Positions 25,070 through 37,575 of a stretch of 64,000 nt of DNA are shown here, one piece after another; positions within the stretch are counted from its first letter, which is position 1, and the number at the start of each line of letters is the position of its first letter. Location of the stretch: the IMG/VR virus record IMGVR_UViG_3300032282_006300, positions 1 through 64,000 of that record; one strand, written 5' to 3'. The notes beneath the pieces were generated by a model. That model was not told where the DNA came from. It made no database searches and saw only the letters and a program-made list of their open reading frames with translations. Made by a program: the position numbers and the translations under genes. The stretch comes from a virus.

Positions 25070-25107
25070 GACTTAAACCTTTTCGTAGAAGAAGCAACTC
25101 CTACGGA

Positions 25108-25482: not shown

Positions 25483-25677
25483 TTACTCACCTAGCAACTC
25501 CTTAATGCTTCTGTCGTTATCTGCGTGGCAAGACTGACACATTATTTTGCCTTTAATCTTCTCGCTGTTAGCCCAAAGTGCTTCATTGTCTTCGGTCAAG
25601 TAGATGTGAAAGTCGCCATAGTCAGCGAACTTGCGACCGCACACCAAACACTTTCCTACTTGTGAAAGTCTTGCCAT
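25483..25677 (-). CDS. Small zinc-finger protein
   Basis: CxxC...CxxC with AGGAG RBS. Confidence 0.6.
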   Translation of the reverse strand: MARLSQVGKCLVCGRKFADYGDFHIYLTEDNEALWANSEKIKGKIMCQSCHADNDRSIKELLGE

Positions 25678-25728
25678 AACAACTCCTATCGTTGGTTGCT
25701 TCCAACCTTACACCTTGCTGTCAAGCCT

Positions 25729-25923
25729 TTAGTCAGGCTCGTAAGGTTCAGAGTTGTTCACGACCTCGTGGAGTTCGCAGAACTTGTCTGAGGTTTCCGT
25801 GTCAATGTCGTCCTCGCAGAACTCAACATCGGGCACTTCTGTCCAATCAGGGTGAGCAACGGAGTAGTGATACATCACTGCCCAATTACACTTGCCCTTG
25901 ATTGGATTTACATCTTCACCCAT
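25729..25923 (-). CDS. Hypothetical protein
   Basis: MGEDVNP start with GGAGG RBS. Confidence 0.5.
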   Translation of the reverse strand: MGEDVNPIKGKCNWAVMYHYSVAHPDWTEVPDVEFCEDDIDTETSDKFCELHEVVNNSEPYEPD

Positions 25924-26016
25924 TGCGCTTTTCCTCCAGCAGTTTGGTGATACAAGGCACGCAGTAGTCAAAGCCGTTGGTGGCTTTGCTCTGGCAACCT
26001 TTGGTCTGGCAACGCT

Positions 26017-26328
26017 TCACGGTTTGCTCACTTGCTTCTGTTGCTTCCTTACCTGAGATAGCCAAGTCGGAACTGCGTCCTTCCAGACGGCTCTGAGGTC
26101 GTCGTCGTTGTTGATGAGGTCTGCTACCCACTCGCGCGCGAGCACCACCTCCAGCAGTCGCTCCGCTTCCTCAAGTGATGTCTGCTCGTCTATCTCCAAC
26201 TGACAGACCGAGCAGAAGGCTTTGGCTTCATTGCCGGTGGAGTTGGGACAAGCAATCCAAGTCAATGAGCCATCATCTGCGTGTTCCCCGAAGGCAAAGC
26301 CTGAGCAGGGATAGTGTGTATTGTTCAT
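26017..26328 (-). CDS. Hypothetical protein
   Basis: 103-aa ORF coupled (ATGA) to the upstream gene. Confidence 0.6.
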   Translation of the reverse strand: MNNTHYPCSGFAFGEHADDGSLTWIACPNSTGNEAKAFCSVCQLEIDEQTSLEEAERLLEVVLAREWVADLINNDDDLRAVWKDAVPTWLSQVRKQQKQVSKP

Positions 26329-26786
26329 GCGCTCACCTTAGCACCTAGAGCCTCTGCTGGGTACACCATCTGCCCAGCCTCAATGTCCTCCCTGATGTGG
26401 ACTTCACTCCACTCAGGCTCAACGGTCAAGAAGCCAGAGCCGGAGAAGGGGAAGCAGGTAAGCACCAGACCGTCTACAAGCCACTCACAGCCATCATCGC
26501 CCCACTCCCATAGTCCTTTGACCAAAGGGAACTGCGCGGTCGTGTCAAACTGTCTGGCGGTCGTGTCAATGACAATCTCCTCGGCTTCCACCCAAACTGC
26601 CCAATGCTCACGACCTTGATACTCAACGCCGGTCATTCGTATCAGGCTTGCGTCAATGCCTCGGTCTTGGAGGAACTGCGCCAAGCCCTGAGAGGCAATG
26701 ACACAATGTCCCCAAGCCTTGTGAGGTACTGACAAGTCCTGCTGGCTTTCGCACCACTGCTGGACTAGCCCTAGCGTGTGGTTCAT
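26325..26786 (-). CDS. Putative transglutaminase/papain-like (Cys-His-Asp) protein
   Basis: GHCVIAS...EHWAVWV...VIDTTARQF spacing of Cys, His and Asp. Confidence 0.55.
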   Translation of the reverse strand: MNHTLGLVQQWCESQQDLSVPHKAWGHCVIASQGLAQFLQDRGIDASLIRMTGVEYQGREHWAVWVEAEEIVIDTTARQFDTTAQFPLVKGLWEWGDDGCEWLVDGLVLTCFPFSGSGFLTVEPEWSEVHIREDIEAGQMVYPAEALGAKVSA

Positions 26787-26876
26787 CTTGCTCCTTCCGT
26801 TGTTGTTGTGCCCCACCTTAGCGACTAACGCCGGAGAGTCAAGCACCCTCACCGGCGTGTCGCCAGATTGTTTGAG

Positions 26877-27161
26877 TCAGCAATACTCGCAGATTTCGCA
26901 GTGCTCCACGGCGCAACGCACTATTGGCTGGCGGAGCAACTCCAGCAGGTAGCCGAGGAACTCAGGTCGGGTGATGTCCCATGCTTCTTCTTCAATGTGT
27001 CCGTAGTGCAATGGATTGCTCTCGTCCTCCATGAGCACGAAGCCTGCGGAGCAAGACCAATCCGCTCCGTAAGTGTTCACATCTCCGCGCTCGGTGTAGA
27101 CCTCAATCTCAATGCCGACTTGCTCAGCCAGCGTGAGCACTTGCTTGAGTGTTGCCTTCAT
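26877..27161 (-). CDS. Hypothetical early protein
   Basis: Own GACAC promoter cassette and RBS. Confidence 0.65.
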   Translation of the reverse strand: MKATLKQVLTLAEQVGIEIEVYTERGDVNTYGADWSCSAGFVLMEDESNPLHYGHIEEEAWDITRPEFLGYLLELLRQPIVRCAVEHCEICEYC

Positions 27162-27248
27162 GTCTTGCCCCCTTCGTTGTCGTTGGTACTAACTTACACG
27201 CAACGCCGGAGGAGTCAAGCATTTCCACCGGCGTGTCGCAAGATTGTG

Positions 27249-27521
27249 TCAGCGCGTTGCGTTGATGGGGAACATCTCATCAAAGATTTCCCACAGTCGG
27301 GCTTCCACAAGACCGGCTTGGTCAAAGGTGTCCGATACGATAAAGGACTCGTTTGGCTTGGTCGTCCAAATCTGCCCATCGTCAAGGACAAGACGGAAGC
27401 CTGTGCCGTCTGGTGTGACCCTTTGGACAACTCGGCTCATTACCCAAGCACCTGTGCGGGGATTGCCGTGGAGGGTGATGATGTCCTGCGTCTTGATTTC
27501 GTTAGCCGGTGTCTGGTTCAT
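27249..27521 (-). CDS. Hypothetical early protein
   Basis: MNQTPA start, own promoter cassette. Confidence 0.65.
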   Translation of the reverse strand: MNQTPANEIKTQDIITLHGNPRTGAWVMSRVVQRVTPDGTGFRLVLDDGQIWTTKPNESFIVSDTFDQAGLVEARLWEIFDEMFPINATR

Positions 27522-27610
27522 TGTGTTGCTCCCTTTCGTTGTCGTTAGTACTAACATACACGCCGGTGGTCACTTTCGCGGTATTGACCACCGGCGTGTC
27601 GCAAGTTATT

Positions 27611-27982
27611 TCAGCCGTAGATTTCCTCACCAAAGATTGCCAACTGAAGCACCGTGGTGGCAACGCAAACATCCCACGACCAGAAGTCGGTGGAGATGGC
27701 ATTGCCACAGCAGGAGTCGCGCAGAGAGCGCGTCAGGGCAATCTGGAAGCCCCTCTCAATGTCAGCAATACCCAAGATGATTTCGCTTGGCTTGCCATCG
27801 TAGAAGTCGTCCTGCTTGTAATAGGTGAACTTGATTTCACCAATGGTTTCCCAATCGGCTTCGCCGAGGTACTCGGCTGAAACGCAGAAGGACTTCATCA
27901 CAGGGTCGCAATCCCAGCCTGAGCCGAAAGTGGCTTCCCATAGAGCCTTGCTGTCCACCTCTACTGCGATTGTCTGGTTCAT
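27611..27982 (-). CDS. Hypothetical early protein
   Basis: MNQTIA start, ends VLQLAIFGEEIYG, own promoter cassette. Confidence 0.7.
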   Translation of the reverse strand: MNQTIAVEVDSKALWEATFGSGWDCDPVMKSFCVSAEYLGEADWETIGEIKFTYYKQDDFYDGKPSEIILGIADIERGFQIALTRSLRDSCCGNAISTDFWSWDVCVATTVLQLAIFGEEIYG

Positions 27983-28067
27983 TGTCTTGCTCCTCTCGTT
28001 GTTGTCGTTGGTACTAACATACACGAAACGCCGGTGGAAACAAGCATTTCCACCGGCGTGTCGCGGA

Positions 28068-28364
28068 TTATTTCACGCAGTCGGGACAGCCCAACTCGCA
28101 AGGCTCAACTCGTGAGCAAAGGTCTACGACACTCTCCCAGATGTCGCCCCAAAGTTCACCGTCCGTCCTGCTGTAATAGTAATCACGGTAGTGGCTGTCA
28201 CCATAGAAGGTGTAGCCGGTCGGAGGGTCAAGGCTGACATGACCACCGGAGATAACGAGGGTGCAACCTGCTCGCTTCGCGGAGGCGATTGCTTGCGCCT
28301 TCGTTGCCTTGCGGGCGGGCTTGACGGCAAAGAGTTGGTTCAGTCGTTGTTCTAGTTCTAACAT
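28068..28364 (-). CDS. Hypothetical early protein
   Basis: MLELEQ start with AAGGAG RBS, own promoter cassette. Confidence 0.65.
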   Translation of the reverse strand: MLELEQRLNQLFAVKPARKATKAQAIASAKRAGCTLVISGGHVSLDPPTGYTFYGDSHYRDYYYSRTDGELWGDIWESVVDLCSRVEPCELGCPDCVK

Positions 28365-28519
28365 GGTCTTGCTCCTTTCGGTTGTCGTTGGTACTAACAT
28401 ACACGAGTTTGCCCGAAACCTCGGTATTTCCACCGGCGTGTCGCAAACTATTTATTTCACCAAAGACCCCTGCCAGACGGGGGATGCTGGCAGGGGTCGG
28501 TCTGGTGTCAGGTCAGGCT

Positions 28520-28891
28520 CTAACCCTCCCTGCTCGTGTCGTTCACATCGTGGCTGTGAAACTCGCCCTCGCTCTGGATTTCAGAAGCCAGCGCGTCCTC
28601 ATCATCAAGGCAGTAGTCGTTGGACTCCACCTCGTACTCAGCCTCGCTCCAATCCAGCCAACGCTCAAGGTTGTCACCGTCACCCTCGCTATCAACGAGG
28701 GTGGTGGCTTCCTGCTCATCAGTAGCCAAGACCAGCAAGGAGAAGGGCACTGTGGCTGTGACCTCCACCGTGAGCGTAATGCCAAACTCGGCAAACTCAA
28801 GTTGAGCGCGGTACTCAGCAGTGCCGGTCACGCGGAACTTGTGGAGTTCTTGCGTGAAAGCAATCTCGTCATTGCTGTCAAAGTAGTTCAT
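28520..28891 (-). CDS. Highly acidic hypothetical early protein
   Basis: 123 aa, very D/E-rich C-terminal half, own promoter cassette. Confidence 0.65.
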   Translation of the reverse strand: MNYFDSNDEIAFTQELHKFRVTGTAEYRAQLEFAEFGITLTVEVTATVPFSLLVLATDEQEATTLVDSEGDGDNLERWLDWSEAEYEVESNDYCLDDEDALASEIQSEGEFHSHDVNDTSREG

Positions 28892-29443
28892 TGTCGTCCC
28901 CTTCTGTCGGTGTAAGCGGTCTTGCTTACAAGGAATACATTACACACCTTTGCCCGAAACCTCGGCATTTACATCGGCGTGTCGCAAGATTTATTTCAGG
29001 GGAGGTAAGAATACCCCTCCCTCCCTACCCTATTTATGGTATCGGCAATCTCGCGCGAAGTCACGCACATCTACCGGCGTGTCGTGAAAAAGTTTATGGA
29101 TTTATCGGCGTGTCGCTACATAACCTGTGCTCAACTCCCCAGATTGCTCTGTATCGCACGAACGCAGGGGGGCTGGTGTGATTGGATAGGGGCAGGGCTA
29201 AGGCTCTCACAGGGGCACACAGGGCTTCTGGTGGGGGTATGCCCCTTGTCAAGCATTGACTCCGGCGTGTCGTGAACTTTCGCCTGAAACGACCAAACCC
29301 CCCTCACGACAATGGGGGGGTCTGGGAGTCGCTGGGGAGGAAAGGAATACTCCTATGCGACTGCCACGCGCTGACAAGGCGCGTGGGGGTGAGCCTAGCC
29401 GGTGAGTCACGGGGGATGGACTCACCGGCTAGGGGCGTGGGGG

Positions 29444-29818
29444 CTACATAGGCTTCACCACGATGTAGTCGGTGGCGGTAGCCAGCATTTCGGCAATCGC
29501 AGGGTACTCAGCCTTCAGGCGAGTGGTGTCAATGCCGGTGCGAGTCCGAGAGCAAGCCATAACCTGAACATAGCCTCCGACTGAACCAGCCTCGTGACCA
29601 TCAAGAAGGGTCAGGATTTGAGCGCGAACCGCCTTTTCCTGAGCCTCAAACAACTTGCTCGCGGTGCGAGCCTCGTTGAGAGCGTTCACCAACTCCAACA
29701 GGTTGGTGTTGTCAAGAGCGATAACATCATCACTCACAGCGGTCGTCTGCTTCACAGCAGGAGCAATACCGACAAGTCGCGCGATTGCGGACTTGGTGAT
29801 TTCGGTCAAAGTAGCCAT
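29444..29818 (-). CDS. Hypothetical early protein (resembles C-terminal region of YqaJ-type phage proteins)
   Basis: Coiled coil followed by IDTTRLKAEYP, strong RBS, own promoter. Confidence 0.6.
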   Translation of the reverse strand: MATLTEITKSAIARLVGIAPAVKQTTAVSDDVIALDNTNLLELVNALNEARTASKLFEAQEKAVRAQILTLLDGHEAGSVGGYVQVMACSRTRTGIDTTRLKAEYPAIAEMLATATDYIVVKPM

Positions 29819-29918
29819 TGTCGTTCCTTTCCTTGTCGTTGTAAGCGGTCTTGCTTACAGGGACTAACTTACCGGACACACCGGAGGAGTCAAGCATTTC
29901 CTCCGGCGTGTCGCGGAT

Positions 29919-30185
29919 TTATTTCGTGTTCAGCGCGTCAAACTGTGCGTGCCACTCAGGGCTTGTCGCCTTGCCACACGAGATAGCAACTTCCAGCACC
30001 GCAATCGCGGTGTCAATAGACATCACCACTTCTTGTGGTGCGTCTGGAGCAGACCACTCGTATAAGTGCCTGTCCTCTCGCGCGATGTGCCAAGACTCGT
30101 ACCGAGCCTGAGCAAGTTCGCCCAGAGCCGAGTCAAGCAGGTTCAGCACGCGAAGCGTGGTTTCCCTTTGCCTTTGGACTGTCAA
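29919..30185 (-). CDS. Hypothetical early protein
   Basis: TTG start with AAAGGA RBS, own promoter. Confidence 0.55.
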   Translation of the reverse strand: MTVQRQRETTLRVLNLLDSALGELAQARYESWHIAREDRHLYEWSAPDAPQEVVMSIDTAIAVLEVAISCGKATSPEWHAQFDALNTK

Positions 30186-30719
30186 TGTCCTTTCCTTCCT
30201 GTTGAGTTGTTGGTAATAACCTACACGAAACCTCCGACAATGCTGGGATTTCGCTCGGCGTGTCGCAAACTTTATGAGATTTATTTATTTATTGGAGTCA
30301 CCGGCGTGTCGCTACACGACCTGTGAGTAAATCCTCCCTAACGGACTTTCAGGCAGGGGGTGGGGTGATTGCCCCTAAACAGGGGGTAAATGGCTTAGAA
30401 CGGCGCACAGGGCTTCTCCGGCGATTTGGCTAAAGTCAAGCATTTGGCTCGGCGTGTCGGGAACTTTCGTGACAATAGCAACCGCACGACTTGACCTGCC
30501 CTTCGCGCTCGTATGACTCACGACACGCCGAGTGCTGATGTGTCAAGCACCAGCCGAAACTTGTGGTACGGTCGGAGGTGGACTTTGGCTTCGGCTTCGG
30601 CTTCGGCTTTGCCCTAGTCATTGGCTTGCCCCCCTGAGCAGGGGCAGAGGTCGCTGGGCGAGTTCGGGAGTCAGCCCCCTGCCGGTGACATAACGGACAT
30701 TTCGGGCATAGCCCGATTT

Positions 30720-30943
30720 GAGTCCGAACTGAAAGTCCGGCGGCGAACTTGCTGGCTGACCCTGAGAGTCCACACAAGGTGTCCCAGCCTGTGATTGTGA
30801 CAAAGACCGGCGACAGTCCGAAGCCCCCTGGAATAGTCCGAACTCAGTCCGGTCATAGTCCCCTAATAGGGTGGTACGCATTAGTCCGAAGTCAGTCCGA
30901 GCATAGTCCCCTATGCTCAGTCCGACCTCAGTCCGGTAGTTCG
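30720..30943. repeat. Iteron-like array of (T/C)AGTCCG units, often 11 bp apart
   Basis: About 9 AGTCCG plus AGTCCC/AGTTCG variants in 220 bp. Confidence 0.85.
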
Positions 30944-30946
30944 GCA

Positions 30947-31417
30947 TTACCAACTCGCCCGATACTGAAACTCCCAGCCTTGAGGAGTGTCCTTCAGCAC
31001 ACGCTCTAGTTGCTCAATGGAGTCGTCAATGTCTGACCAATAGGACTCGTCAATCTCGGTTGAGCCGAAGAAGAAGCCAGCGCAAGGAGGCAACAGTTCC
31101 TCAGCGACCTCCTTGCCTCCAGCCTTGACATTGAGGCAGATGGTCAGCAGTTCGCTCAGTTGCTCACGACCGACATACATCTCCTGACATTCGTCAATGC
31201 CTCGCCCACAGTTGTCTACGAACCAGCGATGGATTTGATTTGCCTTGCGCCAATAGCCAACGGACAGGTCAATCTTTGCTGAAGGCACGAAGCCCCCTAC
31301 AAAGTCTTGACCTTTGACGGCCTCCAAGACCGCGCTGAAGGTGTCCTGATTGGCTTGGGACTGATAGATAGACTCGCTGACATACTTAGTCGCGGTCAGG
31401 TATTGGTCTAGACCCAT
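30947..31417 (-). CDS. Conserved phage hypothetical protein
   Basis: MGLDQYL...YWRKANQIHRWFV...GFFFGST...YRASW family signature. Confidence 0.8.
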   Translation of the reverse strand: MGLDQYLTATKYVSESIYQSQANQDTFSAVLEAVKGQDFVGGFVPSAKIDLSVGYWRKANQIHRWFVDNCGRGIDECQEMYVGREQLSELLTICLNVKAGGKEVAEELLPPCAGFFFGSTEIDESYWSDIDDSIEQLERVLKDTPQGWEFQYRASW

Positions 31418-31418
31418 C

Positions 31419-31691
31419 TCAATCACCCTCCTCATCAAGCCACGGTTCTAGGTGGTGTCCATCAACGATTGCCCACGCTGGCGCGCTCATCTCACCGCGA
31501 TACAGAATACCTTCGGGGAGGTCAATGTCTGCCTCGCTGTTGCCCTCGTTCACAGCCTCAATGGCCAGCACGCAAGGCTCAATCATTGTGGCGGGCACAG
31601 GTGGGTAGTGATTGTTGGTGAGGTGGATAGATAGTGCTTGACGCAAGCCAAACATACTCGTGGCTAGGTCTTGTGCGAAGTTGCTTCCCAT
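31419..31691 (-). CDS. Conserved actinophage hypothetical protein
   Basis: HLTNNHYPPVP...IVDGHHLEPWL. Confidence 0.7.
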   Translation of the reverse strand: MGSNFAQDLATSMFGLRQALSIHLTNNHYPPVPATMIEPCVLAIEAVNEGNSEADIDLPEGILYRGEMSAPAWAIVDGHHLEPWLDEEGD

Positions 31692-31775
31692 TGTCGTTCC
31701 TTCCTTGTTGTTGGTAGTTCCATTGTGGCACACACCGGAGGTCATTTGGGGGATTGACCTCCGGTGTGTCGGGAC

Positions 31776-32195
31776 TTATTCCGCAACAGCCAGCAGGATA
31801 AGTCGTTTCACATCACTGCCATAACCGCGCTCCAACATCTGAGCAAACAGTTGCGCGAGCCGGTTGTCCTCATTGTCGCCCTGACTCATCTCAAAGAAGT
31901 GCTGAGATACTTCGGGCAAGCCCCAGCAATGAGCGAGGATACTCGCCACAATCGCAGGGTGGTCGCGCTCACCATCAGGTGCGATGGTTGCGTACTCGTA
32001 GATGAAAGTTCGCAGTTCATACGCACCATCATCACTGCTCAGGGCAAGCCCCAGAACATTGTCGCGCACATACAGGTTGCTGAACGCGCTGGCCAGCATG
32101 GCAAACACTTCAGGCGTGTAGGTGCGTTCATTGTTGTCAATGGCAACAGCGAAGTCCACGACTGCCTGAACCTCTGAGTCGCTGTGGCTAATCAC
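31776..32195 (-). CDS. DUF4192-like helical protein
   Basis: VRDNVL...IVASILA...NRLAQL, similar in pattern to 21867-22325. Confidence 0.45.
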   Translation of the reverse strand: MISHSDSEVQAVVDFAVAIDNNERTYTPEVFAMLASAFSNLYVRDNVLGLALSSDDGAYELRTFIYEYATIAPDGERDHPAIVASILAHCWGLPEVSQHFFEMSQGDNEDNRLAQLFAQMLERGYGSDVKRLILLAVAE

Positions 32196-32362
32196 ATTGA
32201 CTCCTTAGCAAGTTGGATAGCGCGAACCATACCGCTTGCCCAGCCATCGTTGTATTGGATTTCCTCGTCCTCCAACTCGCCTTCCTCAGCCTCAGCCTTG
32301 TCTAGCGCGGTCGTCTGGTCGTGTTCTGCCTGAAGGACTTTGATGAGTTCCTCAATGGTCAT
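32192..32362 (-). CDS. Small acidic hypothetical protein (56 aa, below ORF-track cutoff)
   Basis: MTIEELIKVLQAEHDQTTALDKAEAEEGELEDEE..., follows a promoter cassette with GGAAGGAAG RBS. Confidence 0.6.
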   Translation of the reverse strand: MTIEELIKVLQAEHDQTTALDKAEAEEGELEDEEIQYNDGWASGMVRAIQLAKESM

Positions 32363-32511
32363 TGTCTTGCTTCCTTCCTTGTTGTTGTTGTTGTTGTTGG
32401 TCTTACTATTTCACACACTCTGGTCATTTCGGTGTATTGACCTCGGCGTGTCGTGGACTTATTTCGGAAGGTGTTGCCCCTGCCCAATGGCGGTCAGGCA
32501 GGGGCAAGTAC

Positions 32512-33348
32512 CTATCCCTCCTCGTAGAAGTCAAACGAGTTCCAAGCCTCGTCCTCGTCCCAATCGTTGTCCCAAGCAGAGCCGTCAGACCCAAGCAAGG
32601 GCACATAGTCAGGGTTGGCAATCTCAGCCAACACTTCATAGCGACAGGTACGCAACTTCTGGAAGTCGCAGTCGCGCGGAACGGATACAACATCGCGAGG
32701 GTTGATTTTCACCTTGACCACGCGAGGTGCGAAGGTGGAGGCGTAGTCCCAAGTGCCAGCGTGGAGTCCGGTAGAACAGCCCTCAAAGGCGTTTGCGTTC
32801 ACGCGATTGCGAGGCATTTCCACGATTGACCCAACAGAGTTCGGGACATTACCGTAGACGGTCTGACCATCTACGATTGCTTCCCCAGAGTGAACCGAGG
32901 TGAGGTCGTCCCTCAGACCCTTGTAGGCGATAAAGTCACCGTCCTCAGTAATGGTGAAGTTCCGGTCGTTGAGCCAAGTGTAAAGTTGCTCACGACTGTT
33001 GCCATTACGGTTCTGGAGTACCTTCTCGTAGAAGTTCACGAGAGGCACGAAATCGTAGATACCCTGCTTCTGAAAGCGCGAGATTTGCGCCGACAAAGAG
33101 TTGTCCACGAGTTCACCATCAACATACACACGACCATCGCTGATTGAGATACGGTCGCTGACCTTCTCAAAGGCTTGTCGTGCTTGCTCGGCTAGGTCAA
33201 ACAAGCCAAACACTTGAGGGTCGTCCTTGATAACTCCCTCAATAATCTGCGCGAACGCAGGGTGATTGTTGGTGGCTGTGTAGACCTTGCCACCTTGTAG
33301 CACCGTAATGGCTGAGCCATTACCTGTGCTGATGAGTTCGTAAAGCAT
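32512..33348 (-). CDS. rIIB: rIIB-like protein
   Basis: NPS-like NRNGNSREQLY...ITEDGDFIAYK...VEMPR...CSTGLHAG...KINPRDVVSVP.D....R.CRYEV. Confidence 0.9.
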   Translation of the reverse strand: MLYELISTGNGSAITVLQGGKVYTATNNHPAFAQIIEGVIKDDPQVFGLFDLAEQARQAFEKVSDRISISDGRVYVDGELVDNSLSAQISRFQKQGIYDFVPLVNFYEKVLQNRNGNSREQLYTWLNDRNFTITEDGDFIAYKGLRDDLTSVHSGEAIVDGQTVYGNVPNSVGSIVEMPRNRVNANAFEGCSTGLHAGTWDYASTFAPRVVKVKINPRDVVSVPRDCDFQKLRTCRYEVLAEIANPDYVPLLGSDGSAWDNDWDEDEAWNSFDFYEEG

Positions 33349-33482
33349 TTCGTTTCCTTCCTTGTAGTTGTTAGTTCTAACTTACCATCTGGGACTGACA
33401 AACCGTGTATTGACGACCGGCGTGTCGTGAGAAGTTTCGGCAGGGCAGGTCAGGCAGGGAAGCCCTGACCTGCCCCTGACCG

Positions 33483-35519
33483 TCACTCGCTGGACTGCTG
33501 ACGCAGGGCATAGGAAGCGTTGAGGTAGATAACAAACTCAGCCCTGACGAGTTCACTATCGGTCACACGACCCAGCCAGATTTCGTTGAGCAGGGGATAA
33601 CTGTGAAGGCTGGTCTTGTAGTCGCTGACCAAAGACTCACCGATAGAGAACGAAAGCGTTCGTGCCAACTTGCGGAACTTGCTCACGACCTCACCGACCT
33701 TCTCATAGCAATCTTTCAGGTCGCGCAGTTCGTCAATGAACTGCTGGTCGTCTACCAATCCCTCTAGCGCGTCAGCGAGTTTGGCTGGCTGACCGAACGA
33801 GTTGTTATTGGAGTTGTAGAGAACAACCTCGCGCGATGTGAACGCTGTCAATGCTTCAGCATAGTCGCGCTTGATTGCTTGTTGGACTGTCAGAGCCAGA
33901 GGGTTCTCTCGCAAGAACTTGTCCTGACGGTTCTTGGCAACTTCCACGACCGCGTAGTTGTCCTCCACAAAATGCTCCACAATACGATTGCGCGAATAGC
34001 CACGGTACTCGTCATTGCTCAGTTCCGTTGGCGAGAAGTAGAGAACCTGCTTGCCAGCAAAGTCAATGCTGTCGGCTGGCATAAGCCCTCCGTTGTTGGT
34101 GACAAGTTCCCAATCCTTAGTGCGTGTTGGGGAGTTCGCGGTGGTCGTTCCAACAGATTGCTTGTGAACTTTGATTGCCTTGATTGTTGAGTAATCAACG
34201 GCAAGAACATTGACCCACTCGCCGACAAAGTTGGTGTCTGCGAATAAGTATTCCGTTGGAGCAGTTTCCAAAGCGAGCGTGTCCACATAAGCGTTCACTC
34301 TCTCAATGGTCGTGGCAGAAGGGTACGACTCACTGCTGTATCCGGTGACAAGAAGTACCTTGCCCAAGTCGCTCGCAATAATAGAACTTTGACGAGAGTT
34401 CTTACGACTACCGTAAGAAGGACTGAGTTGGTGGAGCAGGTAAGAATAACGGAACTGATTGGGCACAGTTTCGCCCCTGAACTCAAACCGCTTGTTGCTG
34501 TCCTCAATGTTGCGCGCAATCGCTCGCCATTGGGTCGCTTCCTCAAAGGCTTCTGCCTTGTTGTTAGCCCTTCCGACATCGGCATAGGCTTTATTGCGTG
34601 CGTTCTTGCGTGCGATGTTCACGAGTTCGGCAAGTCGCTTCTCGGTTCGGTCTGTCAAGTGTAGTTCCTCACGGCTTGGCACGAAGTTGAGTTCGCCCAT
34701 TGGAACTGTGAATACGACAAGGCAATCAAACCAACGGTTGAGTTCGTCTGCGATGTTGCGTGGAGCAGGGTAAGGCACTCCACCCATTACGAAGGTGTGC
34801 GCGCTAATCCTGTCGTCTACCGATTGCGCGCGCCAAGAACTCCAAGCAGGCAGGTTGGTAGCAACAATGGACACATCGTCAGTTCCGACTTCCTTGCCCT
34901 CCACCTTGACATTAGGTTCACCGTCAATCAAGACAGAACCGGACTCCCAGACAGAGAACAGTATCTTAGCCTTGCTTGCGAACTTGTTGTCCGGCTTGGC
35001 TGGGACAGTAATCTTGACTCCGTTGCGTTCGGTCGTGGAGGCGGTGTCCATCACCGACATAGTGCCAGCACCGTCAGTCTTGACTGAGATAAGTACCTCA
35101 GACTTCACACCGTCCTTCACAGCCGTCATAATGAACTGTGAGGCATAGGTCAGGGCAGACTTTGAGCCAAGACCGAGCATACCTGTTTGCTCATTGGACT
35201 CGCGCTTAGTGCTTGCTCCATAGCGTGAGTAGATAGCAGTAATGTCGTCAAGCGACAGCCCTAAGCCAAAGTCCTGAATAGTCAGGAACGGAGAGAGCGT
35301 GTTGGGGAGATTGACCTCAATGGGGGCAGGGTTGCCAGAGGCGATGTGAGAGTCGCGCGCGTTGCTGGAATACTCACGCAAGACTGCCATTTCGGGGTCG
35401 GAGTAGAGGTTGGTCAGAACGCTCATAATGTGAGCGAGCGAGTTCTGGTCAATGCTCATCTCAATGGACTCGCCCTCAAAGGTTGAGGACTTACGAATAC
35501 CTGTCTTTGCTGGTATCAC
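33483..35519 (-). CDS. rIIA: rIIA-like protein (GHKL/HATPase N-terminus)
   Basis: LYSDP.MAVLREYSSNARDSH...IQDFGLGLS...YGASTKR.SN...GMLGLGSKS...SREEL, adjacent to rIIB. Confidence 0.9.
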   Translation of the reverse strand: MIPAKTGIRKSSTFEGESIEMSIDQNSLAHIMSVLTNLYSDPEMAVLREYSSNARDSHIASGNPAPIEVNLPNTLSPFLTIQDFGLGLSLDDITAIYSRYGASTKRESNEQTGMLGLGSKSALTYASQFIMTAVKDGVKSEVLISVKTDGAGTMSVMDTASTTERNGVKITVPAKPDNKFASKAKILFSVWESGSVLIDGEPNVKVEGKEVGTDDVSIVATNLPAWSSWRAQSVDDRISAHTFVMGGVPYPAPRNIADELNRWFDCLVVFTVPMGELNFVPSREELHLTDRTEKRLAELVNIARKNARNKAYADVGRANNKAEAFEEATQWRAIARNIEDSNKRFEFRGETVPNQFRYSYLLHQLSPSYGSRKNSRQSSIIASDLGKVLLVTGYSSESYPSATTIERVNAYVDTLALETAPTEYLFADTNFVGEWVNVLAVDYSTIKAIKVHKQSVGTTTANSPTRTKDWELVTNNGGLMPADSIDFAGKQVLYFSPTELSNDEYRGYSRNRIVEHFVEDNYAVVEVAKNRQDKFLRENPLALTVQQAIKRDYAEALTAFTSREVVLYNSNNNSFGQPAKLADALEGLVDDQQFIDELRDLKDCYEKVGEVVSKFRKLARTLSFSIGESLVSDYKTSLHSYPLLNEIWLGRVTDSELVRAEFVIYLNASYALRQQSSE

Positions 35520-35630
35520 TTTGGAACTTCCCTTCGGTTGTTGTTGGTGACGGTCATCACCTTGTGCCCTAATCATTACACGACAAACGCCGATACTCGT
35601 GGATTGAGTACCGGCGTGTCGCGGATTATT

Positions 35631-35993
35631 TCAGAACGAGTAGGTATTGACCTTCTCAACCGATTTCATACGAGCCTTCAGCACCTTCTCGTACTCCGAA
35701 CGCTCGTGATACACATAGCCACAGGAGTTGCCTGTGCCAACGAAGTAGAAGATTGTGGTGAAGCAGTTGTAAGGGTCACAGGCGTTGTCCATCTTCCACC
35801 TCAGACCCCCCATGTCGTCTACCCAAACATCGTCAATCGGGATACCGCAGGAGAAGTGATACACCTTCGCCAGATAGTCCTTCTTGACCCACCCTTTCGG
35901 GTTGAGCAGTCGCGCAGTCTTGGAGGCTTCCGTCAGGCTGGTGTTCTTTCCCCAGCGACCGTTTCCACCAATGACGACATAGAAATCAGACAT
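35631..35993 (-). CDS. Hypothetical early protein
   Basis: 120 aa with GGGAG RBS, first gene downstream of the non-coding hub. Confidence 0.6.
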   Translation of the reverse strand: MSDFYVVIGGNGRWGKNTSLTEASKTARLLNPKGWVKKDYLAKVYHFSCGIPIDDVWVDDMGGLRWKMDNACDPYNCFTTIFYFVGTGNSCGYVYHERSEYEKVLKARMKSVEKVNTYSF

Positions 35994-36246
35994 ACAATCA
36001 TCTCCCCTGTTGAGTTATGCCAGCACTTGCTGACAAGAACTAACTTAGCACCTCAGACCCCCGAAACCGTGTATTGACCGCTTCGGCGTGTCGCCGGAAT
36101 AGAGATTTCCAACTATTTCCAAACTCTCGGCGTGTCGCTACAAGGGCTGTATGTAAATGCTCTGTAATCGCCTGAAACGATGTGGTTGGTATGGTTGGGT
36201 GGATACGGGGGGTAAGTGGCTCAAATCGCCTCCTACGGCTTCTAAA

Positions 36247-36271
36247 GACCATTGTCCCACATTGTTCCACT
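36247..36271 (-). promoter_or_regulatory. Short MraZ-type GTGG decamer repeat
   Basis: GTGGAACAAT-GTGGGACAAT-GG on the minus strand, 10-bp period. Confidence 0.4.
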
Positions 36272-36456
36272 ATGTCCGATTTGCTCTGCTCTGTTGAGTT
36301 ATGGCTTTCGCTACCTCAAGCATAGCATCACTTGACCCAAAATCTTGGTATTGACTCTCGGCGTGTCGTGAAAAGATTTATTTATTTTCGGCGTGTCGGT
36401 ACTTGATTTCGCGCCTCAAAAGAGTAAAGTTGAGTTTGGTGCCCAAAAACATTTAT

Positions 36457-36472
36457 TCGTACAGGTGTTCTA
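36457..36472. promoter_or_regulatory. LexA (SOS)-box-like site
   Basis: TCGTAC-AGGT-GTTCTA versus the actinobacterial consensus TCGAAC-N4-GTTCGA (2 mismatches). Confidence 0.5.
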
Positions 36473-36654
36473 ATCCAACGACACTCTGTTGCCTCGGTTC
36501 CCTAACTCACCAGCCTAATGCCAAATGGGGCACTTGTCAAAGACCGACACGCGGTTTGGTAGGTGTTTATCATCACACTCAAATCGGCGTGTCTTGCCAA
36601 GATTTCAGGTATGGTTCGGCTATGGTGGTCGTGCCCACGAGCATAACCTACCTT

Positions 36655-36682
36655 ACTTGACATAATGTGTATTATCGGCGTG
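36655..36682 (-). other. dif-like XerC/XerD recombination site
   Basis: CACGCCGATAA-TACACA-TTATGTCAAGT, an 11-6-11 layout. The XerD arm TTATGTCAAGT and the GCCGATAA of the XerC arm match the actinobacterial dif as I recall it. Confidence 0.8.
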
Positions 36683-36824
36683 AGCCACTACGAGTAGGAG
36701 GTCTAGGCACAAATGCCCTTCAGAAGCCCTGTAAGGCTCGCTGAGGGACTTACCCTCCTTCTGTAGGCAATCACCCTAGCCCTTACCTGTTAGGCGCTCA
36801 TGAAGCCATACAGAGCCTCCAAAT

Positions 36825-36951
36825 CTATCCACAGACCTCACGCCTGTATCCACAGGTTATCCACAGGTCGCAAGTTATCCACAGGTTATCCACAAGGTTG
36901 TCCACATTGTGGATAAAATCTGTGGATAACTTGTCCACAGCCTGTGGATAG
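36825..36951. promoter_or_regulatory. Cluster of 10 DnaA boxes
   Basis: TTATCCACA at 36857, 36875, 36886. TGTGGATAA at 36908, 36921. TTGTCCACA at 36898, 36931. One-mismatch boxes at 36825, 36846, 36943. Confidence 0.9.
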
Positions 36952-37055
36952 TGCCTGTCCGTTATGTCCGATTTGCCAGACACGGGGGGTCTCAGCGCCA
37001 GCCAGACCCGCGGGGAGCCATACCATACCCCTACCCCCGCCGCGCGCGTGGACCA

Positions 37056-37276
37056 TAGTCCGGTCCAGTCCGGTCCGTGAGCATGAGCATGACCGGTGTC
37101 AGTGAGCATGACCGAGTCCGGTGTCAGGGCTATAGTCCGATTTCAGTCCGGCGGTTCCCAAAAATAGTCCGAACTTAGTCCGAAGATCAGTCCGAAGCAT
37201 TTTTAAATAGTCCGGACCCATACATGTAAAAAGTCCTCGGCACATCTAGTCCGAAAATAGTCCGGCCATAGTCCGA
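37056..37276. repeat. Second iteron-like (T/C)AGTCCG array
   Basis: About 12 AGTCCG units, many 11 bp apart, same orientation as 30720-30943. Confidence 0.85.
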
Positions 37277-37370
37277 CACAAGTACGCTCGCGTGACGCTC
37301 GCAACTTAATTCAACTTGTTCTCGCCGCCGACTCTTCTTGCACAGCGAACGTGTCCGTAGGCACAAAAAG

Positions 37371-37420
37371 ATGGTAGAAAGTGGTAGAAAGTGGTGCATG
37401 GTGGGGCTTTGTGGGACTTT
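37371..37420 (+). promoter_or_regulatory. MraZ-type binding array (5 x 10-bp GTGG repeats)
   Basis: ATGGTAGAAA GTGGTAGAAA GTGGTGCATG GTGGGGCTTT GTGGGACTTT. Confidence 0.65.
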
Positions 37421-37575
37421 GCTATTAGATATCTGTTAGTGAACTATTGTCCCTATTCGCACGCTTGATTGTAAACGGTACGGGTAATCTTCCAAACACT
37501 ATCGTCCACATGAACGCTACTATGATGTCCATGAGGATATGATCAGGGTCAGATATGTTTTCTAGGAATTGTTCT

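What the first reader, a model, noticed from the sequence alone, without database searches (positions are those of the whole stretch)
36040..37425. Non-coding hub stacking host chromosome-cycle binding sites (DnaA, XerCD/dif, MraZ, LexA, WhiA, CRP): a possible phage cell-cycle decoy/sensor or mini-chromosome module
Seen: within about 1.4 kb with no credible gene there are 10 DnaA boxes (36825-36951), an 11-6-11 dif-like site (36655-36682), GTGG repeats in exact 10-bp phase (37371-37420 and 36247-36271), an SOS-box-like site (36457-36472), at least 6 GACAC boxes, a GTG-N8-CAC CRP-like site (36563-36576) and an AGTCCG iteron array. Established: these motif types are bound by DnaA (initiation), XerC/D (dimer resolution), MraZ (dcw division cluster), LexA (SOS), WhiA (division genes) and CRP in actinobacteria. 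On a chromosome, oriC and dif lie on opposite sides, whereas here they are about 140 bp apart. Inference: this could be (a) a DNA sponge that titrates host replication and division regulators once phage DNA is amplified, (b) a sensor tying phage gene expression to host cell-cycle state, or (c) a compact host-machinery replicon for a carrier state. I know of no described phage element that combines all these sites.
Basis: partly seen in the sequence, partly recalled or inferred. Interest (0 to 1): 0.93.

Follow-up and report, generated by a model that had tools for sequence, protein, structure and literature searches.

The report
Phage hub of host chromosome sites
A gene-free 1.4-kb stretch of an uncultured 124-kb phage, probably of freshwater actinobacteria, carries faithful copies of three host chromosome control sites (a DnaA-box cluster, a dif recombination site and an MraZ-type operator) beside the phage's own repeats; it is most likely the phage's replication origin region and shows how a virus can plug into its host's replication and division machinery.

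Summary
The observation largely holds. Ten DnaA boxes lie in 127 bp. A 28-bp site on the minus strand matches the published Frankia alni dif at 27 of 28 bases. Four GTGG plus one ATGG stand in exact 10-bp phase, and 12 AGTCCG repeats follow. All are far above chance. The GTGG array resembles the arrays upstream of mraZ in Acidimicrobiia genomes. The SOS-like and CRP-like sites are at chance level. The "GACAC boxes" are part of a 9-nt phage early-promoter motif.

Independent assemblies bridge the stretch, so it is not a chimera. The phage encodes DnaB, a DnaC-like loader, a primase and Pol III alpha but no DnaA. DnaA-box clusters recur in 17 of 43 related phage records. dif (0 of 43) and the GTGG array do not recur there. 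DnaA boxes next to dif recur in other viral contigs.

Best reading, at 0.4: a host-DnaA-dependent origin with a Xer site, at the edge of an 11-kb palindrome-free early segment. Rivals are a T5-iss-like boundary, a sensor and a sponge. Earlier scan notes, which I did not check, report similar DnaA and XerCD islands in other giant phages.

The parts
36040..36700 (-). Run of the phage's own early-promoter cassettes without long ORFs. GACACGCCG copies (given as + strand CGGCGTGTC) start at 36084, 36128, 36359, 36389 and 36585, with a degenerate copy at 36676.
   Evidence: The motif has 22 copies in the genome, all at 26853-36585, 21 co-oriented with the genes. In 11 of those 21 a -10-like hexamer starts 41-45 nt after the motif start. 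The copy at 36084 precedes the 120-aa gene 35631-35993.
36512..36540 (-). Candidate sigma-A-type promoter, TTGACA-N17-TAGGCT, reading leftwards.
   Evidence: Read by eye. The consensus scan does not list it (its -10 rule is stricter). Inference only.
36457..36472 (.). SOS-box-like palindrome TCGTAC-N4-GTTCTA. Weak.
   Evidence: not above chance by the GAAC-N4-GTTC core. The lexA operator of the candidate-host MAG is TGGAAC-N4-GTTCCA.
36655..36682 (-). Canonical actinobacterial-type dif core site: XerC arm CACGCCGATAA, centre TACACA, XerD arm TTATGTCAAGT.
   Evidence: It is 27/28 identical to the F. alni dif. The 25-mer is identical to the single dif-type site of one Acidimicrobiales MAG. The arm pattern is single-copy in 53 of 201 genomes of that class (a 54th has two). 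It is unique in the phage.
36825..36951 (.). Cluster of 10 DnaA boxes: 5 TTATCCACA, 2 TTGTCCACA, 2 CTATCCACA, 1 GTATCCACA. Seven are on + and three on -.
   Evidence: Strain differences at 36918 and 36930 fall between boxes.
36958..36976 (+). Copy of a 19-nt repeat (TCCGTTATGTCCGATTTGC) next to the DnaA boxes. The other copy is at 36266-36284. On the minus strand it reads ..AAATCGGACAT.., like the CGGACAT iterons beside the DnaA boxes of a relative.
   Evidence: (family D13), (L186).
37078..37115 (+). GAGCATG repeats (GTGAGCATGAGCATGACCG / GTGAGCATGACCG).
   Evidence: family D9. GAGCATG-type repeats also flank the DnaA boxes in relatives L187 and L189 (by eye).
37057..37275 (+). Iteron array: 12 exact AGTCCG, mostly 10-12 bp apart, with a 67.5% A+T 40-mer inside (starting at 37195).
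   Evidence: Strain differences at 37174, 37176 and 37197 fall between repeats; 37072 hits one repeat.
37371..37414 (+). MraZ-operator-like array: ATGG plus 4 GTGG at an exact 10-bp period.
   Evidence: In 14 of 29 mraZ upstream regions of the candidate-host class at least 3 of 5 slots are filled in phase on the coding strand. Some are nearly the same in box plus flank.
25885..37130 (.). Context: an 11.2-kb higher-GC early segment almost free of ten 4-bp palindromes. Its right edge lies inside the hub.
   Evidence: There are 6 such sites in 11.2 kb, against about 25-50 per kb elsewhere.
30721..30935 (+). Second AGTCCG array (9 exact copies), 6.3 kb to the left and in the same orientation.

Best explanation
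The stretch is the non-coding control region at the head of the phage's early gene module. Its core (about 36.65-37.3 kb) is a replication-origin-type module that relies on host proteins.

Proposed mechanism:
1. Host DnaA binds the 10-box cluster.
2. An unidentified, probably phage-encoded protein binds the neighbouring lineage-specific iterons (AGTCCG, AAATCGGACAT, GAGCATG).
3. DNA opens nearby.
4. The phage's own DnaC-like loader places the phage DnaB helicase, followed by the phage primase and Pol III alpha.
5. The canonical dif site 143 bp away lets host XerC/XerD recombine circular or multimeric replication forms. This could mean resolution, or cyclisation if the segment is terminally repeated.

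The left third (36.04-36.70 kb) is a run of the phage's own early promoter cassettes firing leftwards. The GTGG array at the outer edge mimics a host MraZ operator. I read it as a species-specific add-on by which the host division regulator MraZ can bind at the entry to this region.

Shown: the sites, their match to host-type sites, their non-random density, the phage replisome gene set, the recurrence of DnaA clusters and of DnaA+dif pairs.

Inferred: every binding event, origin firing, and what XerCD and MraZ do there.
For: Sites are real and host-like.

The phage encodes these replication proteins:
- a DnaB-family helicase,
- an IstB/DnaC-like AAA+ protein, a DnaG-like primase, Pol III alpha and RecA.
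It has no DnaA DNA-binding domain.

DnaA-box clusters recur:
- 17 of 43 related IMG/VR records have at least 2 perfect boxes within 300 bp.
- In 5 of 6 such places examined they lie in gaps of 400-1000 bp free of ORFs of 60 aa or more; in the sixth (L188) the boxes sit at ORF ends.
- Short repeats like the hub's stand beside them (CGGACAT, GAGCATG).
- A closer relative (rIIB 74%, rIIA 45% identical) has 5 boxes in a roughly 390-bp gap among early genes.

DnaA boxes next to dif recur in other viral contigs:
- L235/L242: 7 boxes ending 11 nt from dif.
- L246: 2 boxes 4 nt from dif, then an A-rich tract. It is a distant relative (RNR 63% identical).
- L248: a box on either side of dif.
- L262: 3 iterons, 2 boxes and a dif-like site.

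Strong DnaA boxes are 14 times denser within 250 bp of 137 dif-like sites than elsewhere in the same loci.

Between two strains, 1 of 24 substitutions in the hub hits the 255 motif-core positions, against 4.4 expected. My binomial estimate is about 0.05.

From my own knowledge, not from a call: iteron + DnaA-box architecture is that of plasmid origins such as P1 oriR and RK2 oriV.
Against: - No clear A+T-rich unwinding element lies beside the boxes. The best 40-mers are 62-70% A+T.
- Cumulative GC skew is monotonic, with no turn at 36-37 kb. Nearly all genes are on one strand, so this test is weak.
- No Rep-like iteron-binding gene was identified.
- A lytic-type phage that packages concatemers has no obvious need for dimer resolution.
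- dif is absent from 43 of 43 related records, and the GTGG array is absent from their DnaA clusters. These two parts are therefore not essential to the lineage's origin.
- The cultured distant relatives Rhodococcus phage E3 and Mycobacterium phage Tonenili have no cluster.
- In T5, a comparable DnaA-box region is thought not to be the origin.
- The host is not identified. The Acidimicrobiia link rests on one exact dif match and on habitat.
Confidence: 0.4

Rival explanations
1. T5-iss-like boundary element. The hub marks the inner end of the DNA that enters the cell first. Membrane-associated DnaA (and perhaps divisome-bound XerCD/FtsK) hold the incoming genome there while the early genes are expressed, as proposed for the injection-stop region of T5-like phages.
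For: The hub's right part coincides with the sharp right edge (about 37,131) of an 11.2-kb segment (9% of the genome). That segment is almost free of ten 4-bp palindromes. For example GATC is 0 against 32 expected, TCGA 0 against 53, AATT 1 against 39, while the rest of the genome is normal. This is what one expects of DNA exposed to restriction before protective genes act.

The segment consists of small single-gene cassettes with their own promoters, plus rIIA and rIIB.

T5-like phages carry 8 DnaA boxes in a large untranslated, repeat-rich region at the end of the first-step-transfer DNA (7.9% of the genome). That DNA is the part exposed to restriction and CRISPR (passages of bioRxiv 10.1101/866236).

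In 6 of 8 relatives examined the DnaA cluster sits at a low-GC/high-GC junction.
Against: The DnaA role in T5 is itself only a hypothesis. The physical genome ends are unknown here: the record's 83-bp terminal repeat is only an assembly overlap. None of the 8 relatives examined has a palindrome-free segment. No shared repeats mark the two edges of the segment. A1/A2 homologues were not sought.
Confidence: 0.2
2. Cell-cycle sensor. Host DnaA and MraZ (and possibly other factors) act here as transcription factors on the promoter-rich hub. Early phage expression then follows the host's replication and division state, as CtrA does for phages of Alphaproteobacteria ('lytic deferment').
For: The hub holds 5-6 early promoter cassettes, and candidate promoters on the minus strand lie just upstream of the GTGG array (37495->37446). 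The GTGG array closely copies mraZ operators. There is a precedent: a large intergenic region dense in CtrA sites, with binding and regulation shown (abstract of PMC9437464).
Against: The DnaA boxes and the GTGG array do not overlap any recognisable promoter of a protein gene. The GTGG boxes are on the strand opposite to phage transcription, unlike at mraZ. A dif site has no role in such a model.
Confidence: 0.15
3. Decoy or sponge. Once the phage DNA is amplified, the hub titrates DnaA, XerCD and MraZ away from oriC, dif and the dcw promoter. This would freeze host replication initiation, chromosome resolution and division control.
For: Three different host chromosome-cycle factors are targeted with high-quality sites. 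From my own knowledge, not from a call: a DnaA-titrating locus (datA) is known in E. coli. The theme is coherent.
Against: There is only one dif and one 4-5-box MraZ array per genome. The DnaA cluster is conserved in relatives together with iterons, which suggests a role in cis. No experimental handle is available here. Titrating the repressor MraZ would de-repress division genes rather than block them.
Confidence: 0.1
4. Carrier-state or integrative element. The module lets the phage persist as a plasmid-like circle, or integrate at the host dif through XerCD (IMEX-like), because it has no recombinase of its own.
For: No tyrosine recombinase is encoded, yet the dif is perfect. The origin + Xer-site layout is plasmid-like. 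Xer-exploiting phages are known, though non-tailed ones (search listings and abstracts).
Against: No ParB or ParA-like partition protein was found. The gene set looks lytic, with rIIA/rIIB, RNR and a replisome. The portal was not found in any of 301 genomes of the candidate host class. From my own knowledge: IMEX attP sites are usually imperfect, whereas this one is canonical.
Confidence: 0.07
5. Chance motif stacking or an assembly chimera with host DNA.
For: The LexA-like and CRP-like sites are at chance level. Many motif classes were tried by eye.
Against: Shuffle expectations are 0.03 or less for the dif and GTGG patterns. Contigs of 3 runs from 3 studies, plus one JGI contig, bridge dif, DnaA boxes and iterons at about 98% identity. 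The hub shares the phage's own repeat families: GACACGCCG with 26.8-35.6 kb, and AGTCCG with 30.7 kb. The candidate-host genome shares only the dif 26-mer.
Confidence: 0.02

Closest known systems
Injection-stop (iss) untranslated region of T5-like phages (Davison 2020, bioRxiv 10.1101/866236; abstract and passages read)
   Same: A large gene-free, repeat-rich region in a large virulent-type phage. It holds about 8-10 DnaA boxes arranged as at oriC. It lies at the inner end of the early, restriction-exposed part of the genome and is conserved among relatives.
   Different: The T5 region has no dif and no MraZ-type array. Its boxes sit in pairs inside long inverted repeats within a known terminal repeat. 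Here the physical ends are unknown and the boxes are accompanied by iterons. In T5 the origin is mapped elsewhere.
Iteron-type plasmid and plasmid-prophage origins with DnaA boxes (P1 oriR, RK2 oriV, pSC101; recalled, no paper read)
   Same: DnaA boxes directly beside an array of short direct repeats at about one helical turn. The host DnaA is used while the element supplies other replication proteins.
   Different: No Rep gene and no partition genes were identified. The genome is a 124-kb myovirus-like phage with its own DnaB, DnaC-like loader, DnaG-like primase and Pol III alpha. The iterons are 6-nt cores rather than 17-22-nt units.
Chromosomal dif/XerCD, plasmid Xer sites (cer, psi) and Xer-exploiting phages (IMEX). 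Kono et al. 2011, PMC3025954, passages read; other papers seen only in search listings and abstracts.
   Same: A 28-bp 11-6-11 core with both arms identical to an actinobacterial dif. The element has no recombinase of its own.
   Different: It is not at a chromosome terminus. No integrated copies were found. IMEX described in the papers listed are filamentous or double-jelly-roll phages, not large tailed phages. No cer/psi-type accessory region was recognised, though the DnaA array lies on the XerC side at about 140 bp.
MraZ binding repeats of the mra/dcw promoter (White et al. 2022, bioRxiv 10.1101/2022.02.09.479790; passages read)
   Same: Direct GTGG repeats with a 10-bp period. A triple repeat is unique to Pmra in B. 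subtilis. Here there are 4-5 repeats, and box plus flank are nearly the same as in some Acidimicrobiia mraZ promoters.
   Different: It lies in a phage, not upstream of mraZ. It overlaps no recognisable promoter. The boxes are on the strand opposite to the direction of phage transcription.
CtrA-site islands in phages of Alphaproteobacteria (Mascolo et al. 2022, PMC9437464; abstract read)
   Same: A large intergenic region of a phage densely packed with binding sites for a host cell-cycle regulator, evolved independently in several lineages.
   Different: There it is one factor at promoters, with binding and regulation shown. Here three different host systems are involved, nothing is shown experimentally, and the sites are mostly not at promoters.

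Membership tests
dif-type XerC/XerD core site (actinobacterial) | 28-bp 11-6-11 layout with a XerC arm, a 6-bp centre and a XerD arm matching the phylum's dif | tested here: met
   27/28 identical to the F. alni dif quoted in PMC3025954. Zero mismatches to GCCGATAA-N6-TTATGTCAAGT.
dif-type XerC/XerD core site (actinobacterial) | The same pattern is the single-copy site of real genomes | tested here: met
   The pattern (at most 1 mismatch) occurs in 54 of 201 genomes of the class of the Acidimicrobiales MAG. It occurs once per genome in 53 and twice in one. The reversed control gives 0. The exact 25-mer occurs in 1 genome of the 185,579-species collection.
dif-type XerC/XerD core site (actinobacterial) | Lies at the replication terminus of a chromosome, opposite oriC | tested here: not met
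   It lies on a phage genome, 143 bp from a DnaA-box cluster. It is therefore a dif-type core site, not a chromosomal dif.
dif-type XerC/XerD core site (actinobacterial) | Bound and recombined by XerC/XerD (with FtsK activation) | not testable with these tools
   Needs a recombination assay.
DnaA-dependent replication origin (oriC or iteron-plasmid type) | Cluster of DnaA boxes | tested here: met
   10 boxes in 127 bp.
DnaA-dependent replication origin (oriC or iteron-plasmid type) | Adjacent A+T-rich unwinding element | tested here: inconclusive
   The best 40-mers are 62.5-70% A+T, for example at 37195 inside the iteron array. No obvious repeated 13-mer-like element was seen.
DnaA-dependent replication origin (oriC or iteron-plasmid type) | Iterons with a cognate initiator gene | tested here: inconclusive
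   Iterons are present (12 AGTCCG). No Rep-like gene was recognised. The flanking ORFs have no family.
DnaA-dependent replication origin (oriC or iteron-plasmid type) | The element depends on host DnaA (it lacks its own initiator but has a helicase and loader) | tested here: met
   No Bac_DnaA_C domain. DnaB_C hit of 77 bits. IstB-like AAA+ protein, DnaG-like primase and Pol III alpha.
DnaA-dependent replication origin (oriC or iteron-plasmid type) | Strand-composition switch at the origin | tested here: not met
   Cumulative GC and AT skews are monotonic across 36-37 kb. The test is weak because nearly all genes are on one strand.
DnaA-dependent replication origin (oriC or iteron-plasmid type) | Supports initiation or autonomous replication | not testable with these tools
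   Needs cloning or marker-frequency analysis.
MraZ operator (MraZ binding repeats) | Three or more direct GTGG repeats at a 10-bp period | tested here: met
   4 GTGG plus 1 ATGG. Definition taken.
MraZ operator (MraZ binding repeats) | Resembles the arrays upstream of mraZ in candidate-host genomes | tested here: met
   14 of 29 mraZ upstream regions have at least 3 of 5 phase slots filled on the coding strand, and 10 of 29 have at least 4. The reverse strand never exceeds 2. L223 and L226 nearly share box plus flank with the phage array.
MraZ operator (MraZ binding repeats) | Sits at the promoter of mraZ/dcw | tested here: not met
   It is phage non-coding DNA. There is no mraZ and no AbrB/MazE-fold gene in the phage.
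T5-type injection-stop region | Untranslated repeat region with DnaA boxes at the inner end of the first-entering DNA or terminal repeat | tested here: inconclusive
   It lies at the edge of the palindrome-free segment, but the physical ends and any repeat status are unknown.
T5-type injection-stop region | A1/A2-type pre-early genes and paired boxes inside the IRC/IRD inverted repeats | not tested
   No search for A1/A2 was made. The box layout differs by eye.
LexA SOS box | Match to the host's SOS palindrome beyond chance | tested here: inconclusive
   10/12 to the recalled TCGAAC-N4-GTTCGA consensus. By the core there is 1 site against 0.63 expected. The candidate-host lexA operator is TGGAAC-N4-GTTCCA.
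CRP/GlxR site | TGTGA-N6-TCACA beyond chance | tested here: not met
   1 site with at most 2 mismatches against 0.62 expected.
WhiA GACAC boxes | Bare GACAC motifs acting as WhiA sites | tested here: inconclusive
   The boxes are part of the 9-nt GACACGCCG motif. It sits at a fixed distance from -10-like hexamers in 11 of 21 co-oriented copies and occurs only at 26.8-36.6 kb. Binding by WhiA is neither shown nor excluded.
IMEX (integrative element exploiting Xer) | Found integrated at a host dif | tested here: not met
   The portal was not found in 301 genomes of the candidate class. That is a sample, and no positive control exists.

The most novel reading that the evidence does not exclude
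The hub may be a 'host chromosome-cycle docking module'. In this reading, a pairing of DnaA boxes with a canonical dif site has arisen repeatedly in unrelated phages: at least four further viral lineages here, and per unchecked scan notes also marine giant phages. In this phage it is extended by an MraZ operator mimic. It would tie the infecting genome physically to the host's initiation (DnaA), terminus/divisome (XerCD-FtsK) and division-control (MraZ) machinery. The purpose would be to read or to jam the host cell cycle, not merely to start phage replication.
Probability: 0.25. Interest if true: 0.9.

Novelty: new variant of a known kind. Interest (0 to 1): 0.72.

Why it matters
DnaA-box regions in phages are known (the T5 iss region, P1 oriR). 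Xer sites are known on plasmids and on small non-tailed phages. I found no description of any of the following:
- a canonical host dif site 143 bp from an oriC-like DnaA-box cluster in a large tailed-type phage;
- an MraZ operator mimic in any phage;
- the recurrence of DnaA-box + dif pairs across viral contigs.

If the module is the origin, it gives a concrete, testable model for how phages that carry a bacterial-type replisome without an initiator start replication. It also assigns a new task to XerCD in tailed-phage biology.

If the module is a boundary, sensor or decoy, it links phage infection to the host's replication and division cycle in Actinomycetota, where no such link is known.

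The adjoining palindrome-free early segment offers a sequence-only way to recognise first-entering DNA in uncultured phages.

Tried and rejected
- DNA similarity of 35600-37800 to GenBank phages and PLSDB plasmids. There was nothing except 51-60-nt matches of the DnaA-box run to unannotated or hypothetical regions of Escherichia phage P483 and Vibrio phages BD1/BD5, and no plasmid match.
- Rfam. Only a tRNA at gathering score in the window. At E up to 1 the hub gave only sub-threshold microRNA-hairpin hits on the DnaA-box palindromes.
- rIIA as a single query found no relative in IMG/VR. An alignment of 22 sequences was needed.
- None of 80 distant rIIA loci carries a dif-like site or 4 or more DnaA boxes per 200 bp within 7 kb of rIIA. 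The clusters lie farther away.
- GC/AT skew shows no origin signal.
- No repeats are shared by the two edges of the palindrome-free segment.
- None of 8 relatives has a palindrome-free segment.
- Phased GTGG triples occur in 2 of 43 related records, neither at a DnaA cluster.
- AGTCCG-N5-AGTCCG in 101 genomes of the candidate class: by my hand tally of the table, about 65 hits against about 43 for the reversed control. That is only modest enrichment. A subclass, AGTCCGCGnnn, lies beside tyrosine integrases and a transposase. I keep this as a lead, not as the binder of the phage iterons.
- The candidate-host MAG shares only the dif 26-mer with the hub. There is also a 21-nt DnaA-box match in its dnaA-dnaN gap.
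- Portal search in 301 genomes: nothing, and no positive control.
- No RNA holder was listed among the sequencing runs. This says nothing about expression.
- The contig depths cannot tell whether the early segment is a two-fold terminal repeat.
- I first read the dif site on the plus strand and took its right arm for a degenerate promoter-motif copy.
- A recount gives 14/29 and 10/29 (corrected in entry 5).
- Supplements of the papers were not seen. The per-genome dif tables of Kono et al. could bear on which taxa share the TACACA centre.

Full report
WHAT THE WINDOW IS. The window is the first 64 kb of a 123,830-bp IMG/VR virus record rated 100% complete. The record's 83-bp terminal repeat is only an assembly overlap. 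G+C is 44.7%. The portal protein is about 42-44% identical to those of Rhodococcus phage E3 and Bixzunavirus mycobacteriophages. rIIA (33483-35576) and rIIB (32512-33348) lie just left of the finding. Of the 108 non-overlapping ORFs of 100 aa or more, all but about ten are on the minus strand. Transcription therefore runs from high to low coordinates through the finding.

THE OBSERVATION. Between the 120-aa gene ending at 35993 and the next gene at 37576 no ORF exceeds 94 aa. None of the eight ORFs of 53 aa or more has a PHROG or Pfam family.

The DnaA boxes are real. Ten matches to TTATCCACA with at most 1 mismatch lie at 36825-36951, out of 24 in the window. Shuffles give a mean of 16.1 for all 64 kb. 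Five of the seven perfect boxes of the genome lie here.

The minus strand reads CACGCCGATAA-TACACA-TTATGTCAAGT. Kono et al. 2011 quote CACGCCGATAATGCACATTATGTCAAGT for Frankia alni. That is 27 of 28 identical, and the one difference lies in the central hexamer. The site is unique in the genome, and shuffles give a mean of 0.03 even at up to 3 mismatches.

ATGG plus four GTGG stand at an exact 10-bp period at 37371-37414. Shuffles give a mean of 0.01. No other 4-mer forms a run of four at this period anywhere in the genome.

Twelve AGTCCG, all on the plus strand, lie at 37057-37270, against 0.48 expected.

The SOS-like and CRP-like sites exist but are not above chance. The second GTGG array has only two boxes in phase.

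THE GACAC BOXES. These belong to a longer motif. CGGCGTGTC occurs 22 times in the genome. All copies lie between 26853 and 36585, and 21 are in the same orientation as the genes.

Read on the gene strand, the copies sit in the short gaps before genes. In 11 of the 21 co-oriented copies a -10-like hexamer (TAAGTT, TATGTT and the like) starts 41-45 nt after the motif start. A strong hairpin (z below -2) follows in only 4 of 21.

The left third of the finding is therefore a run of five or six copies of the phage's own early promoter cassette. The last copy drives the 120-aa gene. WhiA binding is neither shown nor excluded.

NOT A CHIMERA. Contigs from four runs of four studies (freshwater, lake, soil) cover the stretch at about 98% identity. 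Single contigs bridge dif, the DnaA boxes and the iterons in three of them: X2 at 36376-37584, X4 at 36336-37570 and X5 at 35815-37331. A 5.9-kb JGI contig (L104) runs from rIIA to 37605 and carries every element.

The hub also shares repeat families with the rest of the phage. GACACGCCG is shared with 26.8-35.6 kb, and there is a second AGTCCG array at 30721-30935.

Between L104 and the window, 24 substitutions fall in the hub. Only one hits the 255 motif-core positions (the outermost base of dif), against 4.4 expected. My binomial estimate is about 0.05. The variants listed from the other runs fall mostly in spacers, with one exception at 37072.

HOST-LIKENESS OF THE SITES. The exact 25-mer of the phage dif occurs in one genome of the 185,579-species collection, an Acidimicrobiales MAG (taxonomy). 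The arm pattern (at most 1 mismatch) occurs in 54 of 201 genomes sampled from that class. It occurs once per genome in 53 and twice in one, and the reversed control gives none. The pattern therefore behaves as that class's dif. F. alni, of another class, shares the arms, so the host class is not settled.

That MAG shares nothing else with the hub except a DnaA-box pair in its dnaA-dnaN gap.

I examined the stretches upstream of mraZ in 29 genomes of the class (30 loci were fetched and one gave no ORF). In 14 of them at least 3 of 5 phase slots carry GTGG on the coding strand, and in 10 at least 4 do. The reverse strand never exceeds 2. Some arrays, such as GTGGtgcaaaGTGGggcgtcGTGG, nearly equal the phage's GTGGtgcatgGTGGggctttGTGG. 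White et al. define the MraZ repeats of B. subtilis as three GTGG[A/T]G with 4-nt spacers, and the triple is found only at Pmra.

The MAG's lexA operator, TGGAAC-N4-GTTCCA, does not resemble the phage's SOS-like site closely.

WHAT THE PHAGE BRINGS ITSELF. It encodes RecA, Pol III alpha, a DnaG-like primase, a class II ribonucleotide reductase, an IstB/DnaC-like AAA+ protein, a 5'-3' exonuclease and an SNF2 helicase. It also encodes a DnaB-family helicase next to the loader.

I did not find any of the following:
- a DnaA DNA-binding domain;
- a tyrosine recombinase;
- ParB;
- a ParA-like ATPase;
- MraZ;
- an AbrB/MazE fold.

RELATIVES. Forty-three related IMG/VR records were searched whole (36 of them at least 90% complete; rIIA at most 47% identical).
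- None has a dif-type site with 3 or fewer mismatches.
- Two have a phased GTGG triple, and neither is at a DnaA cluster.
- Seventeen have two or more perfect TTATCCACA within 300 bp. Some of these records are close to each other, so this is not a count of independent lineages.

I looked at six such places. In five the boxes lie in gaps of 400-1000 bp free of ORFs of 60 aa or more. In the sixth (L188) they sit at ORF ends, which is ambiguous. CGGACAT iterons stand beside the boxes in L186; compare the hub's ..AAATCGGACAT.. next to its boxes. GAGCATG repeats stand beside them in L187 and L189; compare 37078-37115.

In 6 of 8 relatives the cluster sits where G+C rises by 0.05-0.1 into a 5-8-kb segment. 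In this phage the hub likewise separates 38-41% G+C from 52-57%.

A closer relative, L106 (rIIB 74% and rIIA 45% identical), has five boxes in a gap of about 390 bp among early genes, 7 kb upstream of rIIA. It has no dif in the 13 kb held.

The cultured phages E3 and Tonenili have no cluster.

DIF + DnaA BOXES ELSEWHERE. A scan of IMG/VR for GCCSATAA-N6-TTATGTCAAGT gave 20 loci. Several carry DnaA boxes beside the site:
- L235 and L242, the same element, carry seven DnaA boxes that end 11 nt from dif.
- L246 carries two boxes 4 nt from dif, then an A-rich tract and an inverted TTAGTCC repeat.
- L248 has a box 70 nt on one side of dif and 45 nt on the other.

L246 is a distant relative of this phage (RNR 63% identical over 683 aa). 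L248 encodes a terminase and L235 a peptidoglycan-binding protein.

By my estimate it contains many chance hits. Over 137 sites in 138 loci, strong DnaA boxes number 28 in the 72.3 kb within 250 bp of a site, against 31 in 1,114.6 kb elsewhere. Fourteen of the 28 come from the duplicate pair. Twelve of the 137 sites have at least one box.

L262 shows three iterons, two DnaA boxes and a dif-like site in a row.

THE SURROUNDINGS. From 25,885 to 37,130 the genome is almost free of ten of the sixteen 4-bp palindromes:

| Palindrome | Observed | Expected |
|---|---|---|
| AATT | 1 | 39 |
| ACGT | 0 | 33 |
| AGCT | 0 | 53 |
| ATAT | 0 | 21 |
| GATC | 0 | 32 |
| GGCC | 3 | 47 |
| TCGA | 0 | 53 |
| TGCA | 2 | 46 |
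| TTAA | 0 | 14 |
| TATA | 2 | 16 |

The rest of the genome is normal, except that AGCT is absent everywhere. The right edge of this segment falls inside the AGTCCG array. So dif, the DnaA boxes and the promoter run lie inside the segment, and the GTGG array lies just outside it.

Such local avoidance is what one expects of DNA that meets host restriction before protective genes act. In T5 that is the first-step-transfer DNA. Its untranslated end carries eight DnaA boxes, which Davison proposes as the injection stop.

WEIGHING. The conserved part is the DnaA boxes plus lineage iterons. The phage has a bacterial-type replisome with no initiator. Independent iteron + DnaA-box + dif modules exist in other viral contigs. 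Together these make a host-DnaA-dependent origin with an attached Xer site the best single reading (0.4).

Against it stand the lack of a clear unwinding element, the uninformative skew, the missing Rep gene, and the fact that dif and the GTGG array are species-level additions.

The T5-like boundary reading (0.2) is favoured by the palindrome-free segment, and it is compatible with an origin at the same place. The sensor (0.15), sponge (0.1) and carrier/IMEX (0.07) readings cannot be excluded. Chance or chimera is excluded for the four strong elements.

PRIOR NOTES AND NOVELTY. Earlier notes of this scan, which I did not check, describe a DnaA-box island in giant T4-like phages and a XerCD/IHF/DnaA module ahead of the first genes of a marine jumbo phage. 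If they hold, this finding is an actinobacterial instance of a wider pattern, and the MraZ mimic is its new feature.

I found no paper describing a tailed phage with dif beside DnaA boxes, or MraZ sites in a phage. Those searches cover only the held library.

Noticed in passing
window 25885-37130: An 11.2-kb higher-GC early segment almost free of ten 4-bp palindromes (6 sites in all), with sharp edges. GATC is absent from 22986 to 37185. This suggests DNA that enters or is exposed first.
   Followed up: yes
whole genome (G000): AGCT is absent from the whole 124-kb genome (0 observed, about 256 expected outside the early segment). TCGA is at 0.4 of expectation.
   Followed up: partly
window 30300-30950: A second gene-poor stretch with 9 AGTCCG repeats (30721-30935), a GGCTTC x4 run (about 30586-30609) and three GACACGCCG cassettes, one of them inverted (30522).
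   Followed up: partly
window 29106-29122 (minus strand): One promoter cassette reads GACACGCCGATAAAT. It contains a perfect 11-nt XerC arm (CACGCCGATAA) without a XerD arm. The promoter motif and the XerC arm share CACGCCG(A).
   Followed up: no
window about 37460-37630: Contigs of all four runs laid, and the JGI contig L104, end within this 170-bp span just right of the hub. One run continues into unlike sequence at 37626.
   Followed up: no
L233, L230, L229 and others (genomes of the candidate host class): Arrays of 2-3 AGTCCGCGnnn units at an 11-bp period lie beside tyrosine integrase genes and a Mutator transposase. In places two arrays in the same orientation stand 3-8 kb apart, as if flanking small integrated elements.
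   Followed up: partly
L185 1020-1060, L186 990-1030; window about 30395-30425 and 36718-36745: A roughly 25-40-nt element (..AAGCyCTGTgCGCCGTTCTrAG..) between the DnaA boxes of two relatives resembles stretches in this phage's early region. Seen by eye only.
   Followed up: no
L243 1076-1132: A 31.7-kb viral contig carries two dif-type sites in tandem, 29 bp apart start to start.
   Followed up: no
L106 100-1400: The 45%-rIIA relative uses a different repeated early-promoter motif (TGTCAGACCC, then about 5 nt, then GGTAnAAT) in place of GACACGCCG.
   Followed up: no
GenBank phages P483 (37317-37381) and BD1/BD5: The DnaA-box run of the hub matches 51-60-nt stretches (81-85% identity) in unannotated or hypothetical regions of Escherichia phage P483 and Vibrio phages BD1/BD5. 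Cultured phages therefore also carry tandem DnaA boxes.
   Followed up: no
window 9140-9286: Adjacent tRNA-Lys(ttt) and tRNA-Asp(gtc) genes on the minus strand.
   Followed up: no
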